A stretch of DNA of 28,148 nucleotides from Gammaproteobacteria bacterium (GCA_027317045.1 DAHVFI010000303.1:1-28148), one strand, 5' to 3'; positions 764 to 23,913 are shown, counted from the stretch's first letter. Translations and numbers: made by a program. Notes: a model not told the origin generated them from the sequence alone.

Positions 764-2173
764 ATGCCCTCCAAAGATGTCTTGGATCTGATTGTCAAAG
801 AAAACGCGAAATTTGTGGACTTTCGCTTCACTGACAGCCGCGGCAAGGAGCAGCACGTAAGTGTGCCGGCGCATACCGTGGACGAAGAACTGTTTGAGGA
901 TGGCAAAATGTTTGACGGCTCTTCCATTGCCGGCTGGAAGGGAATCAATGAGTCCGACATGATCTTGATGCCCGATCCCGGCAGCGCGATTATCGACCCG
1001 TTCTTCGAGGAGCCTACCGTCAATCTGCGTTGCGACGTTATCGAACCGGCCACCATGCAGGGCTATGGGCGTGATCCACGCTCCCTCGCCAAACGTGCCG
1101 AGGCCTATCTGAAATCCACCGGCATCGCCGATACCGCTTACTTCGGACCGGAGAACGAATTTTTCATCTTTGACGACATCCGCTGGGGCGCCGATATCAG
1201 CGGCTCCTTCTACAAGATTGATTCCAAGGAAGCCGGCTGGAATTCCGAGCGCGTTTACGAGGGTGGCAATATCGGCCACCGTCCCGGCATCAAGGGCGGC
1301 TATTTCCCGGTGCCGCCAGTGGATGCCTTGCAGGACATCCGCTCCGCCATGTGCATGGCGCTGGAAGACATGGGCTTGAAAACCGAAGTGCACCATCATG
1401 AGGTGGCAACCGCAGGTCAGTGCGAAATCGGTGTGGCCTTCGGCACGCTCGTCAAGAAGGCCGACGAAGTGCAGATCCTCAAGTATGCGGTCATGAACGT
1501 GGCTCACGCTTATGGTAAAACCGCCACCTTCATGCCCAAACCCCTGGTGGGCGACAACGGCAGTGGCATGCATGTACATCAGTCGCTGGCCAAGGATGGT
1601 AAAAACCTGTTCAGCGGCGACCTCTATGGCGGGTTGTCGGAACTGGCGCTCTACTATATCGGCGGCATCATCAAGCATGCACGCGCGCTGAATGCCTTTA
1701 CCAACGCCAGCACCAACAGCTACAAGCGCCTGGTACCGCACTTCGAAGCACCGGTAATGCTGGCTTACTCCGCCCGCAACCGTTCTGCCTCCATCCGCAT
1801 TCCCTACGTATCCAGTCCCAAAAAGCGCCGTATTGAGGTACGTTTCCCGGATGCCAGCGGCAACCCCTATTTCGCCTTTAGCGCCATGATGATGGCCGGC
1901 TTGGACGGCATCCAAAACAAGATCCATCCGGGCGAAGCCATGGACAAGGATCTTTATGATCTGCCGCCAGAGGAGGAAAAAAATATTCCCCAGGTTTGCT
2001 ATTCACTGGATATGGCGTTGGAATATTTGGACAAGGACCGCGGCTTTCTGAAAGCCGGCGGTGTGTTCACCGACGATGTGATTGATGCCTACATCGGGCT
2101 CAAGATGCAAGAAGTCACGCGTCTGCGTATGACCACGCATCCGGTGGAATTTGACATGTATTTCAGCTTGTAA
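764..2173 (+). CDS. glnA: Glutamine synthetase type I
   Basis: 469 aa; [74 protein letters not shown] and adenylylation-site [10 protein letters not shown] motifs. Confidence 0.99.
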
Positions 2174-22187: not shown

Positions 22188-22445
22188 TCAGATTTCCGGC
22201 TTGCCCACATCCACATCGTCGAGATCGCGGGAATAATCGGTGGCCAGGATATCGCGTGCCAAGGTCTCATCCGCACGCATGACGCGAAGCTTGATGCCGC
22301 CGAGAGCGATGGCATACAACCAGTCCATCTGCACCATGTTGTCATCGAACAGTAACGCGCGGATTCCCTCCGCCGCCAGCCGCCCCATGACGATATGTGC
22401 ATCGATGGTCTTGTCGAAGGTGGCGATGGTGACGTATTCGTCCAT
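22188..22445 (-). CDS. DUF2007-type small protein
   Basis: 85 aa, MDEYVTIATFDKTIDAHIVMGRLAAEGIRALLFD...LGGIKLRV....ETLARDIL, the typical DUF2007 pattern. The start site is inferred. Confidence 0.75.
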   Translation of the reverse strand: MDEYVTIATFDKTIDAHIVMGRLAAEGIRALLFDDNMVQMDWLYAIALGGIKLRVMRADETLARDILATDYSRDLDDVDVGKPEI

Positions 22446-22665
22446 GTCGGCAACCAAGTCGGCGTTGCAATCCCCGTCGTCTGTCGCTCTCGGCGGCGAG
22501 CGCAATGCCCGGCCGCTGTCCTCGGTGAGTGCGCCATACAGGCGGATTAACCAGACCGAAAACCGCCGGAATGCGGGGAATACCAGCAACGTTGTGTCCC
22601 GGAACTTGCGTCGCGCGGCGACTAAGCTTTGAGATTAGAGCACAAAACCGTGACGACGGCGGCAT

Positions 22666-22694
22666 AAAAAACCCGGCGGACGGGACCGCCGGGT
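22666..22694 (-). terminator. Intrinsic terminator
   Basis: Minus strand ACCCGGCGG-TCCCGT-CCGCCGGGT followed by a U tract; perfect 9-bp stem. Confidence 0.85.
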
Positions 22695-22813
22695 CAAGGC
22701 CTTCATGGCCAGAGGTGATTGAGTGTACCTAAAAGGGCGTAAGCATCCTTGCTGGTCCATACCCCGCCCCGGGTCCCTGATCCTATCCTTGTCCCGCCAT
22801 TCCTTGGCAGTGC
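22666..22813 (-). ncRNA. Candidate CsrA/RsmA-sequestering sRNA (RsmY/Z/CsrB-like), about 150 nt
   Basis: Seven GGA motifs in the first ~70 nt, at least two in hairpin loops (CUGCCA-AGGAA-UGGCGG and AGCA-AGGA-UGCU); 3' intrinsic terminator; GacA-type box upstream. The 5' end is approximate. Confidence 0.72.
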
Positions 22814-22874
22814 AGGCGAGTGTTACTCTGCCACGGGCAGATTGCCGGTACAGTCGGAGGACCCCGGCAGCCAG

Positions 22875-22892
22875 CGTAGGAAAAGGCTTACA
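22875..22892. promoter_or_regulatory. GacA/UvrY-type upstream activating sequence
   Basis: Minus strand TGTAAG-CCTTTT-CCTACG versus consensus TGTAAG-N6-CTTACA (10/12), about 60-80 bp upstream of the predicted sRNA start. Confidence 0.65.
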
Positions 22893-22956
22893 TCGAAAGC
22901 TGTCCCCCATTTGATTTTGCGGTAAAACCCAGTAACAAATCCCAAAACCAGCCGCC

Positions 22957-23913
22957 ATGCGCGAACTCTTCCCTCCCTTGGAACCCTTTGCCACCCGCCG
23001 CCTACCCGCGCAGGCGCCCCATGAGATTTATGTGGAGGAATGCGGCAATCCCGACGGCCTGCCCGTGGTGTTCGTTCACGGCGGTCCGGGCGGTGGCTGT
23101 ACCACCGACAACCGCAGGTTTTTCGATCCGGCGCGTTATCGCATCGTGCTCTTCGATCAACGCGGTTGCGGCCGTTCACGGCCACACGCGGAACTCACGC
23201 ACAACACCACCCAGGCGCTGGTGGAGGATATGGAGCGCATCCGGGAAACCCTCGGCATTGAGCGTTGGCTGGTTTTCGGCGGTTCCTGGGGTTCGACCTT
23301 GGCCCTGGTGTACGCCGAAACTCACCCACAGCGGGTCCTGGCGCTGATTCTGCGCGGCATTTTCCTGGTCACGGCGGCGGAACTCAGCTGGTTTTACCAG
23401 GACGGCATCCAGCATCTGTTTCCGGACTATTTTGAGGAGTTCGTGGCGCCGATCCCGGTAGCCGAGCGCAGCGACCTGATACACGCCTATTATCGGCGTC
23501 TCACCAGCGATGATCCCGCCACGCGCCAACGCGCGGCGGAAGTCTGGTCGTTGTTCGAGGCGCGCTGCTCAACGTTGTTGCCCAGCGAATCCGTCGTAGA
23601 TCATTTTTCCGAGCCGGATGTGGCCATGGCCATCGCCCGCATCGAATGTCATTACTTCGTGCATGATTGTTTCCTGACCCCCGGGCAGATCATCCGCGAT
23701 GCGCCGCGTATCCGGAATATCCCCGGCGTGATCGTGCAAGGGCGCTACGATGTGGTATGTCCGGCGTCCGCCGCTTGGCAGCTGCACAAGGCATGGCCGG
23801 AAGCGCAGTTTCGGTTAATTCCCGATGCCGGCCACGCCTCCAGCGAACCGGGCGTCTGCTCGGCCCTGGTGGAAGCGACCGATGAGTTTGCCGGCCGTTT
23901 CAAAACCCCATGA
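22957..23913 (+). CDS. pip: Proline iminopeptidase
   Basis: [28 protein letters not shown] (nucleophile Ser), [17 protein letters not shown] and DAGH. Confidence 0.96.

What the first reader, a model, noticed from the sequence alone, without database searches (positions are those of the whole stretch)
22666..22892. Unannotated GacA-box / GGA-hairpin / terminator unit: a new Rsm/Csr-type sRNA
Seen (minus strand): TGTAAG-N6-CCTACG at 22875-22892, a possible -10 near 22819-22825, then seven GGA motifs (loops at 22794-22810 and 22742-22753). An ~45-nt GGA-free segment containing CAAUCACCUCU follows, then a perfect 9-bp terminator. Established: GacA/UvrY binds TGTAAG-N6-CTTACA upstream of rsmX/Y/Z, whose GGA loops titrate RsmA/CsrA. 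Inference: a lineage-specific Rsm sRNA. The anti-SD-like CACCUCU segment raises the possibility of a dual protein-sponge and base-pairing RNA.
Basis: partly seen in the sequence, partly recalled or inferred. Interest (0 to 1): 0.75.

Follow-up and report, generated by a model that had tools for sequence, protein, structure and literature searches.

The report
CsrA-sponge RNA that pairs with csrA
This is an unannotated, well-conserved small RNA gene of the Rsm/Csr kind (a decoy for the translational repressor CsrA, switched on by GacA). Its most conserved stretch is also complementary to the leader of the csrA mRNA, so one RNA probably controls both the CsrA protein and its synthesis.

Summary
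On the minus strand, 22892 to 22664, lie:
- a GacA/UvrY-type palindrome, the only one in this assembly;
- an extended -10;
- a structured RNA of about 155 nt with seven GGA motifs, two of them in hairpin loops;
- a 15-nt mostly unpaired segment;
- a small hairpin and an intrinsic terminator.

The genome encodes CsrA, a GacA/UvrY orthologue, a BarA/GacS-like kinase and Hfq. The RNA is single-copy. It is present in 51 of 66 genomes of this uncultured soil gammaproteobacterial order, with strong structural covariation, and it matches no Rfam family. Soil metatranscriptome contigs hold it as a discrete, adapter-flanked fragment.

New here: the invariant segment (UCAAUCACC core) has its best sense-strand complement in the genome just 5' of the csrA Shine-Dalgarno (15 bp). 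Both partners are conserved in 14 lineages, four of them outside the order. Their flanks co-vary (lineage permutation P = 0.0002). Both are missing where GacA is missing.

Best reading: a GacA-driven CsrA sponge that also base-pairs with the csrA leader. I favour repression, but the direction of the effect is not shown.

The scan had already filed this RNA family, on another genome, as a new Rsm-type sRNA. It had not noted the csrA pairing.

The parts
22875..22892 (-). GacA/UvrY-type upstream activating palindrome TGTAAG-N6-CCTACG
   Evidence: Read. It is the only GTARG-N6-CYTAC site in the assembly. TGTA[AG]G-N6-CCTACA is invariant at the same distance in all aligned homologues.
22851..22857 (-). 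Conserved CCGACTG element between the box and the -10; function unknown
   Evidence: Conserved in the genus alignment. It recurs as CCGACTT or CCCGACTGG in homologues outside the order, G321 and G231.
22825..22833 (-). Extended -10 promoter element TGg-CAGAGT (consensus TGnCAnAnT)
   Evidence: TG, A2, A4 and T6 are conserved across the genus while the bases after it vary. The consensus scanner did not call it, because there is no -35.
22664..22818 (-). Predicted sRNA transcript, about 155 nt. The TSS is inferred at about 22818; RNA-library fragments end at 22810 and 22806.
   Evidence: The covariance model R1 scores 174 bits, with a single copy in the genome. On 53 homologues, 94% of cells are paired and 26 of 33 pairs show changes on both sides. 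Metatranscriptome contigs are bounded by adapters at 22810 and 22699.
22794..22810 (-). Hairpin 1, CUGCCA-AGGAA-UGGCGG, presenting GGA in its loop
   Evidence: RNAalifold. All 6 pairs show changes on both sides and 97% of cells are paired.
22770..22793 (-). Unpaired GGA-rich linker inside the closing stem (stem arms 22814-22820 and 22763-22769)
   Evidence: Consensus structure. The motifs ACAAGGA and NAGGAC are conserved.
22742..22753 (-). Hairpin 2, AGC-AAGGAU-GCU; the loop CAAGGAUG matches the core of the CsrA SELEX consensus
   Evidence: The SELEX consensus RUACARGGAUGU is from my own knowledge (Dubey et al. 2005, pmid 16131593, listed in the references seen).
22713..22727 (-). Seed UACACUCAAUCACCU (invariant core UCAAUCACC at 22714-22722), complementary to the csrA leader at G000 contig C73:138-152 (-)
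   Evidence: Most conserved block of the RNA across the order. Mean unpaired probability 0.58 against 0.43 for the whole RNA. It forms a 15-bp ungapped helix with the csrA leader and its flanks co-vary with the leader.
22698..22710 (-). Small hairpin GGCC-AUGAA-GGCC
   Evidence: A-U to G-C compensation in 6 of 20 sequences. Three of its 4 pairs show changes on both sides.
22664..22695 (-). Intrinsic terminator (10-bp stem, 8 G-C pairs, U-run)
   Evidence: Eight of 10 pairs show changes on both sides.

Best explanation
This is an independent sRNA gene transcribed from an extended -10 promoter that depends on GacA/UvrY bound to the upstream palindrome. The RNA has two modules.

The 5' two-thirds displays five to seven GGA motifs, in two hairpin loops and in an unpaired linker. 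It acts as a decoy that titrates CsrA dimers away from mRNAs, as RsmX/Y/Z and CsrB/C do.

The 3' third carries a largely single-stranded, invariant seed (UCAAUCACC plus lineage-specific flanks). The seed base-pairs, probably with Hfq's help, with the csrA mRNA leader. The target site lies between an upstream GGA motif and the Shine-Dalgarno, ending about 15 nt before the AUG.

I think the most likely outcome is reduced csrA translation, through occlusion of an SD-like upstream ribosome-loading site or of the RBS region. The Gac signal would then lower CsrA activity twice, by sequestering the protein and by reducing its synthesis.

Shown here (computationally): the anatomy, conservation, RNA structure, complementarity, its covariation, the presence of the protein partners, and presence in RNA libraries.

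Inferred: GacA dependence, CsrA binding, that the leader box lies inside the csrA transcript, and the direction of the effect.
For: Sponge module:
- GGA density is in the top 0.056% of genome windows.
- The GGA-bearing hairpins are supported by covariation.
- The GacA box is unique in the assembly and conserved.
- The genome has a GacA orthologue at 298 bits against NF007018 (cut-off 280), a BarA-like hybrid kinase and CsrA.
- The sRNA is found where a GacA orthologue is found (f1, f9, f7, f4, f3). It is missing in f2, f6 and f8, which lack one.
- The terminator is real, and in family f3 the next gene is convergent, so the gene stands alone.

Pairing module:
- The best sense-strand complement of the seed in the genome is a perfect 14-mer (15 bp ungapped) 16 nt upstream of the csrA start. 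About 1e-6 such hits are expected by chance at that place.
- The box GGUGAUUGA sits in the csrA leaders of f1, f9, f7, f5, f4 and f3. It is absent from f2 and f8.
- Double compensatory changes are seen in g2, G022, f3, G263, G394 and G231. G231 has three in a row.
- Lineage-level permutation over 14 lineages gives a matched helix sum of 161.4 against 147.3 +/- 3.9, P = 1.7e-4. With flanks only, P = 5.7e-4.
- The seed is more accessible than the rest of the RNA, and Hfq is present.

Expression: three soil metatranscriptome runs hold the RNA, with contigs ending at 22806/22810 directly against sequencing adapter. One is a 112-nt adapter-flanked insert at higher depth than its flanks, while a DNA run bridges the site.
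Against: - There is no experiment: CsrA binding, GacA dependence and the RNA-RNA duplex are all inferred.
- The csrA TSS is unknown. A TATAAC just upstream of the box in some genomes could be a -10, which would place the mRNA 5' end inside the box.
- A crude RNAduplex test of matched against mismatched pairs was not significant (P about 0.2). The first anchored test, with 9 clades, gave P = 0.09. Significance came only with anchored helices over 13-14 lineages.
- The duplex mostly ends 15-30 nt before the AUG, so RBS occlusion is not obvious. The leader has no conserved inhibitory structure that would argue for activation. The direction of the effect stays open.
- The RNA-library evidence comes from contigs, which cannot prove transcription, strand or true ends.
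- One f5 genome has the sRNA but no detectable GacA; that MAG is 87% complete.
- In five of the nine outside-order families whose csrA leader carries the box, no seed-bearing sRNA was found.
Confidence: 0.6

Rival explanations
1. It is a pure CsrA sponge. The invariant 3' segment is kept for another reason, such as an RNase E or turnover-factor site, an Hfq site, or a generic mimic of the 16S 3' end. Its match to the csrA leader would then have no regulatory meaning.
For: AUCACCUCC is identical to the 3' end of 16S rRNA, and the leader's AGGUGAU is SD-like, so some complementarity would follow from that alone (my knowledge of the 16S 3' end; sequences). The RNAduplex matched-versus-mismatched test was not significant. 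In CsrB, an unstructured stretch before the terminator governs turnover (my own knowledge).
Against: The complementarity runs 5-8 nt beyond what 16S rRNA could pair with (UUGAGUG with CACUCAA). It changes in step in both partners, for example GCUUC with GAAGC in G231 against CACUC with GAGUG here. Both partners are lost together in f2 and f8. No other 5' region of the genome has a comparable match.
Confidence: 0.2
2. It is mainly an Hfq-dependent base-pairing sRNA that targets csrA. The GGA motifs would be structural or would only let CsrA modulate the sRNA, and it would not titrate CsrA to a meaningful degree.
For: There are only five to seven GGA motifs. The f3 version is about 80 nt with three or four GGA. 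CsrA is known to bind several base-pairing sRNAs without being sponged by them (reviewed in PMC7652899 and PMC10729762, listed; I did not read them).
Against: RsmX and RsmY work with similar numbers of motifs (my own knowledge). The GGA positions, two of them in covarying hairpin loops and one matching CARGGAUG, are conserved across the order. This is the only GacA-box target in the assembly, which is the role Rsm sponges have elsewhere.
Confidence: 0.08
3. The shared 9-mer is a DNA-level site: a transcription-factor or repeat-element motif present at both loci, not an RNA-RNA interaction.
For: At the DNA level, matching flanks would also be expected if one protein read both sites. In one outside genome (G154) TCAATCACC-GCA-GGTGATTGA is a REP-like palindrome with 25 or more copies.
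Against: In the sRNA gene the motif lies about 95 nt inside the transcribed region, between structured elements. The two copies are always in opposite orientation relative to transcription. Several differences between partners are G-U compatible (G062, G055, G010, G019, G035). In this genome the 9-mer is not over-represented: about 50 hits to three overlapping 9-mers, close to the roughly 47 that random expectation would give (my estimate).
Confidence: 0.05
4. It is a cis-acting 5' leader of the downstream DUF2007 gene (22188-22589, minus strand), not a free sRNA.
For: RNA-library contigs run from 22810 through the terminator to beyond 22300. The DUF2007 gene is co-directional and this arrangement is conserved within the genus.
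Against: The intrinsic terminator is strong and covaries. In f3 the downstream gene is convergent, and in other families the neighbours differ. The adapter-flanked 112-nt insert has higher depth than its flanks. A contig across two genes does not show a single transcript.
Confidence: 0.04

Closest known systems
RsmX / RsmY / RsmZ of Pseudomonas (Rfam RF02144, RF00195, RF00166)
   Same: A GacA box of the form TGTAAG-N6-CTTACA about 70 nt upstream of the start; 100-160 nt long; several GGA motifs in hairpin loops and linkers; an intrinsic terminator; CsrA/RsmA, GacA and GacS in the genome.
   Different: No sequence or structure homology: no Rfam hit even at E <= 10 for this copy or E <= 1 for 18 homologues. 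There is one copy per genome rather than two to five. It carries an invariant seed complementary to the csrA leader. I know of no such seed in RsmX/Y/Z, and found none in the papers searched.
CsrB / CsrC of Enterobacteria (RF00018, RF00084)
   Same: Sponge logic driven by UvrY/BarA; GGA-loop hairpins; the loop CAAGGAUG fits the CsrA consensus.
   Different: Much shorter, with 7 GGA against about 9-22. No homology detected. CsrB and CsrC feed back on CsrA indirectly through BarA-UvrY, not by pairing with csrA mRNA (my own knowledge).
McaS of E. coli (dual-function sRNA: Hfq-dependent base-pairing plus CsrA titration)
   Same: One RNA combines GGA-mediated CsrA binding with an mRNA-pairing seed (my own knowledge of Jorgensen et al. 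2013; McaS and CsrA are treated in PMC10729762, listed, which I did not read).
   Different: McaS is not under GacA/UvrY control. It has two GGA sites, and its base-pairing targets are csgD and flhD, not csrA. Here the mRNA target encodes the very protein that is sponged.
sRNAs or Hfq acting on the rsmA leader in Pseudomonas (srbA in P. aeruginosa; Hfq on the rsmA 5'UTR in P. stutzeri)
   Same: Precedent that the rsmA/csrA 5'UTR is a post-transcriptional control point bound by Hfq and an sRNA (PMC12203948, PMC11332353).
   Different: Those regulators are not GGA sponges and are not reported as GacA-box genes.

Membership tests
Rsm/Csr-type CsrA-titrating sRNAs (functional class) | Multiple GGA / A(N)GGA motifs, several exposed in hairpin loops or unpaired linkers | tested here: met
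   Seven GGA in 95 nt, top 0.056% of genome windows. Two lie in covarying hairpin loops and the rest in an unpaired linker. The mean unpaired probability of the GGA motifs is 0.61.
Rsm/Csr-type CsrA-titrating sRNAs (functional class) | GacA/UvrY upstream activating palindrome (TGTAAG-N6-CTTACA) ahead of the promoter | tested here: met
   TGTAAGCCTTTTCCTACG is centred about 65 nt upstream of the inferred start. It is unique in the assembly and conserved in all homologues.
Rsm/Csr-type CsrA-titrating sRNAs (functional class) | Genome encodes CsrA/RsmA, GacA/UvrY and GacS/BarA | tested here: met
   CsrA: PF02599, 68 bits, gene cut by the contig end. GacA: NF007018, 298 bits against a cut-off of 280. 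BarA-like kinase: 459 bits over model positions 202-910, cut by the contig start and below the equivalog cut-off.
Rsm/Csr-type CsrA-titrating sRNAs (functional class) | Non-coding, 100-400 nt, ends in an intrinsic terminator, transcribed as a free RNA | tested here: met
   Terminator found. The structure covaries. No conserved ORF covers it. An adapter-bounded fragment is present in three RNA libraries, which is contig-level evidence only.
Rsm/Csr-type CsrA-titrating sRNAs (functional class) | Binds CsrA and relieves CsrA-mediated repression; transcription depends on gacA | not testable with these tools
   Needs EMSA or co-IP, and genetics.
Curated Rfam families RsmX, RsmY, PrrB_RsmZ, CsrB, CsrC | Scores against the family covariance model | tested here: not met
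   No hit at gathering threshold in the window. No Rsm/Csr family appears at E <= 10 on 22550-23000, at E <= 1 on 18 homologues, or at E <= 0.1 on loci from outside the order.
Dual-function sponge plus base-pairing sRNAs (McaS-like) | Accessible seed with conserved, co-varying complementarity to an mRNA translation-initiation region | tested here: met
   A 10-15 bp helix with the csrA leader in 14 lineages. Lineage permutation gives P = 1.7e-4. Seed unpaired probability is 0.58.
Dual-function sponge plus base-pairing sRNAs (McaS-like) | Hfq-assisted pairing with a measurable effect on target translation or stability | not testable with these tools
   The hfq gene is present (99.6 bits). Binding and effect were not tested.

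The most novel reading that the evidence does not exclude
A widespread and so far unrecognised class of GacA-controlled Rsm sRNAs in Gammaproteobacteria closes a direct RNA-level loop on its own partner. The same molecule sequesters CsrA protein and base-pairs with the csrA mRNA leader through an ancient 9-nt core: UCAAUCACC on the sRNA and GGUGAUUGA on the leader. The core is found in at least five orders or families. The pairing may tether the sponge to the csrA message, or it may set the rate of CsrA synthesis.
Probability: 0.55. Interest if true: 0.8.

Novelty: new variant of a known kind. Interest (0 to 1): 0.7.

Why it matters
Csr/Rsm is one of the main post-transcriptional switches of Gammaproteobacteria. 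Its known feedbacks are CsrA autorepression and indirect activation of the sponge genes.

An sRNA that both titrates CsrA and pairs with the csrA leader would add a direct RNA-RNA arm to the circuit. It would also explain why a sponge RNA keeps an invariant segment free of GGA.

The circuit could be tested in a heterologous E. coli two-plasmid assay with compensatory mutants. The 9-nt core also gives a simple handle for finding such RNAs in lineages where no Rsm sRNA is known. In practical terms, it annotates a conserved non-coding gene, absent from Rfam, in a common group of uncultured soil bacteria.

Tried and rejected
- Rfam scans at gathering and E-value thresholds found no Rsm/Csr family. 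The only hits were weak, below gathering score, and lay over the 3' segment and terminator: anti-hemB, sX13, the Betaproteobacteria toxic sRNA and BcKCsr7. I treat them as chance.
- Unrestricted RNAduplex energies for matched against cross-clade sRNA/leader pairs showed no significant excess (P about 0.2). Long G+C-rich sequences give many spurious duplexes. I replaced this with ungapped helices anchored on the core.
- A second perfect 14-nt complement on contig C111 is antisense to a porin-like ORF, so it is not in an mRNA. I discarded it.
- Other 9-mer matches in the genome are at the random expected number and mostly lie inside coding regions. No second conserved target emerged.
- The ORFs overlapping the region (22635-22994, 22723-22914 and others) and the ORF that starts in the terminator U-run (22342-22665) have no family hits and are less conserved than the DUF2007 frame. 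I rejected them as genes.
- The search for sequencing runs with the G394 locus listed no RNA holder and only small shares, so it gave neither a name nor expression data for that lineage.
- No seed-bearing sRNA was found with my patterns in G422, G266, G176, G154, G190, G192 or G034. This does not show absence.
- The literature searches found no paper describing a Csr/Rsm sponge that pairs with csrA mRNA. The library is incomplete.

Full report
**What is there.** Read on the minus strand, the intergenic region lies between a divergent alpha/beta-hydrolase gene (22957-23913, +; Pfam Abhydrolase_1) and a co-directional DUF2007 gene (22188-22589, -). In order, it holds:
- the palindrome TGTAAGCCTTTTCCTACG (22892-22875);
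- a conserved CCGACTG (22857-22851);
- an extended -10, TGgCAGAGT (22833-22825);
- an RNA of about 155 nt (about 22818 to 22664).

The RNA has a closing stem (22820-22814 with 22769-22763). The stem encloses hairpin 1 (22810-22794, loop AGGAA) and an unpaired linker with four GGA. Hairpin 2 follows (22753-22742, loop AAGGAU, i.e. CAAGGAUG). After it come an unpaired stretch containing UACACUCAAUCACCU (22727-22713), a small hairpin (22710-22698) and a 10-bp intrinsic terminator with a U-run (22695-22664). Only the -10 needs moving a few bases upstream.

**Is it more than chance?**
- Seven GGA in 95 nt is reached by 0.056% of windows of this genome.
- The loose palindrome GTARG-N6-CYTAC is expected about 14 times from base composition but occurs only here in the 2.06-Mb, 84%-complete assembly.
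- The unit from box to terminator is conserved at 71-97% identity in 20 of 20 genomes of the genus and in a second genus. Many of the BLAST matches begin right at the box (query position 59-70), and most end at or shortly after the terminator.
- A covariance model built from 20 homologues (A1, R1) finds exactly one copy in this genome (174 bits). It finds one copy in 51 of 66 genomes of the order, including 40 of 40 in the family.
- On 53 aligned homologues, 94% of cells pair and 26 of 33 pairs carry changes on both sides. The covariation score is 0.283, against 0.106 in shuffles (0 of 500 reach it) and 0.03-0.07 when the partners are slid. That alignment was fitted to the model, which favours the structure. 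The independent RNAalifold run on the MAFFT alignment gave the same helices.

**Taxon and partner genes.** A pattern scan of species-representative genomes for the seed plus small hairpin hit 36 contigs. All are uncultured Gammaproteobacteria MAGs from soil and sediment, two of them labelled Natronospirales. The window's genome has:
- CsrA;
- a GacA/UvrY equivalog at 298 bits, cut-off 280;
- a BarA/GacS-like tripartite kinase, truncated by a contig end;
- Hfq.

Across the order, CsrA is nearly universal. A GacA orthologue scoring 250 bits or more is present in families f1, f9, f7, f4 and f3, and absent from f2, f6 and f8. The sRNA follows GacA. The model finds it in f1, f9, f7 and f5 and, weakly, in two f4 genomes. 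A more sensitive run recovered two further f4 copies. In f3 there is an 80-nt version in the same neighbourhood (next to the proline-iminopeptidase-like hydrolase or dtd). The model missed it, and I found it through its GacA box. Nothing was found in f2, f6 or f8. One exception is a single f5 MAG, 87% complete, that has the sRNA but no detectable GacA.

**Membership.** No Rfam family is matched at gathering threshold. At permissive E-values no Rsm/Csr family appears either for this copy, for 18 diverged homologues or for look-alikes outside the order. So it is not a member of RsmX, RsmY, RsmZ, CsrB or CsrC, although it has every sequence hallmark of how they work.

**The 3' segment.** The GGA-free block is the most conserved part of the RNA: CAAUCACCUCC is invariant across the order. 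I searched the whole genome for its complement. Apart from the gene itself there were two perfect 14-mers.
- One is antisense to a porin-like ORF, and I discarded it.
- The other lies on contig C73, 16 nt upstream of ATG TTG ATT CTG ACC AGA CGG, the start of csrA (MLILTRR).

Ungapped, the helix is 15 bp: sRNA UACACUCAAUCACCU with leader AGGUGAUUGAGUGUA (C73:138-152, minus strand; SD AGGAG at 130-134; ATG at 122-120). The site sits between an upstream AUGGAAU motif and the SD. These are the two likely CsrA autoregulatory sites, about 35 nt apart. The genus leaders show no conserved secondary structure.

**Comparative test of the pairing.** I fetched csrA leaders from 40 genomes of the order. 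The box GGUGAUUGA lies 15-35 nt upstream of the AUG in f1, f9, f7, f5, f4 and f3. It is absent from f2 and f8, the families that also lack GacA and the sRNA.

Changes in one partner are matched in the other:

| Lineage | sRNA | csrA leader | Change relative to this genus (CACUC with GAGUG) |
|---|---|---|---|
| genus g2 | CCAAUCACCUC | GAGGUGAUUGG | U-A to C-G |
| G022 | CUCAAUU | AAUUGAG | C-G to U-A |
| f3 (G044) | GCUCAAUCACCCG | CGGGUGAUUGAGC | 13 bp, several double changes |
| f3 (G038) | A at the varying position | U at the varying position | A-U kept, against G-C in G026 and G044 of the same family |

A class-wide pattern search for the box followed by the csrA start hit 11 of about 398 genomes outside the order, with no hits for the reversed-pattern control. 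In four of these lineages I then found a gene with a GacA box, 6-11 GGA motifs and the same core seed:
- G321: 9 bp, core only, and the same CCGACT / TGGCAGAAT promoter architecture.
- G263: GUCAAUCACC with GGUGAUUGAC, a C-G to G-C change.
- G394: UCAAUCACCAA with UUGGUGAUUGA, a U-A to A-U change.
- G231: GCUUCAAUCACCU with AGGUGAUUGAAGC, 13 bp with three consecutive double substitutions.

For a statistic, I anchored each pair on the 9-nt core and counted contiguous pairs. Summed over 14 lineages, the matched helices total 161.4, against 147.3 +/- 3.9 when leaders are permuted among lineages (P = 1.7e-4). With flanks only, P = 5.7e-4. Earlier and cruder tests were not significant: free RNAduplex energies gave P about 0.2, and nine clades within the order gave P = 0.09. 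I report these too. The signal comes from the flanks and needs the more distant lineages.

**Expression.** Three soil metatranscriptome runs from three studies hold 42-46% of the sampled words of the 1,001-base query that spans the locus (window 22400-23400). Laid on the locus, their contigs break at 22806/22810 with Illumina adapter sequence directly attached. In one run, a 137-nt contig is a 112-nt insert (22699-22810) flanked by both adapters. Its depth is 217, against 91 and 43 for the neighbouring contigs. A metagenomic DNA contig bridges the site without a break. A second allele is assembled only over the sRNA. This fits an abundant discrete small RNA. The apparent 5' end lies 8 nt inside the inferred start, as is common for this type of library. 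These are contigs, though, so strand, true ends and transcription as such are not proven. Longer contigs also run through the terminator into the DUF2007 gene.

**Mechanism.** I commit to a GacA-activated sRNA with two modules: a GGA decoy for CsrA and a seed that pairs with the csrA leader.

The leader part AGGUGAU is itself SD-like, being the complement of the 16S 3' end. So the seed may compete with ribosomes for an upstream loading site, or it may sterically hinder the nearby RBS. In this genome, RNAduplex extends the duplex, with a bulge, over the SD.

I therefore favour repression of csrA translation, a coherent double brake on CsrA, at roughly 60:40 over the alternatives. Those are activation or stabilisation of the message, for example by preventing a CsrA dimer from bridging its two leader sites, and tethering of the sponge to the csrA message.

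**Rivals.** A pure sponge with a coincidental match, a pure base-pairing sRNA, a DNA-level motif and a cis-acting leader of DUF2007 are weighed in the Rival explanations section. None accounts for flank covariation, strict antisense orientation and joint loss taken together.

**Comparison and novelty.** It works like RsmX/Y/Z and CsrB/C but is not homologous to them. The dual design resembles McaS of E. coli. The differences are that this RNA is the Gac-controlled sponge itself, and that its mRNA target encodes the protein it sponges. The literature I could search describes Hfq binding to the rsmA 5'UTR and another sRNA (srbA) acting on rsmA. It describes no sponge that pairs with csrA.

An earlier follow-up in this scan (e1-2074980, on another genome) had already filed this RNA family as a new Rsm-type sRNA in about 45 MAGs. 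I agree with that.

I rate it a new variant of a known kind, with interest 0.7.

Noticed in passing
L184 (G321), L185 (G263), L202 (G394), L213 (G231); csrA leaders L172-L182: Outside the window's order, 11 of about 398 sampled gammaproteobacterial genomes have GGUGAUUGA just upstream of the csrA SD. Four of them (four different families) also have a GacA-box, GGA-rich sRNA with the UCAAUCACC seed. The arrangement is therefore older and wider than this order.
   Followed up: partly
L161 about 1501-1650 (+), L162 (-), L203 (+): family f3 of the same order: A much shorter version, about 80 nt, in the same genomic neighbourhood: GacA box, three or four GGA (one in the terminator loop) and the same seed. 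The covariance model of the long form does not detect it.
   Followed up: partly
L198 (G321 C39), forward from about 1501: G321 also has a second GacA-box, GGA-rich sRNA with a terminator but no seed. Seed-bearing and plain sponges can coexist in one genome.
   Followed up: no
G154, 25 or more loci (L200, L209, L212, L215 ...): A REP-like repeat, TCAATCACC-GCA-GGTGATTGA followed by a conserved tail, is present in at least 25 copies. Its arms are the same 9-mers as the seed and the leader box. Whether this is coincidence is not known.
   Followed up: no
window 22851-22857 (-): A CCGACTG element about 20 nt downstream of the GacA box is conserved across the genus and recurs in distant homologues (G321, G231). 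It is too far from the -10 to be a normal -35. It may be a second protein-binding site.
   Followed up: no
window 22300-22810: RNA-library contigs continue from the sRNA through its terminator into the DUF2007 gene (22188-22589, -). This may be terminator read-through or overlapping transcripts.
   Followed up: no
G000 contig C111:9287-9300 (+): A second perfect 14-nt complement to the seed lies antisense to a 421-aa porin-like ORF. I judged it fortuitous.
   Followed up: partly
G000 contig C73:249-1529 (-): csrA follows an aspartate-kinase-like gene (the C-terminal ACT region can be read), as rsmA follows lysC in Pseudomonas. The intergenic leader is 126 nt. This reading is by eye only; no family search was run.
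   Followed up: no
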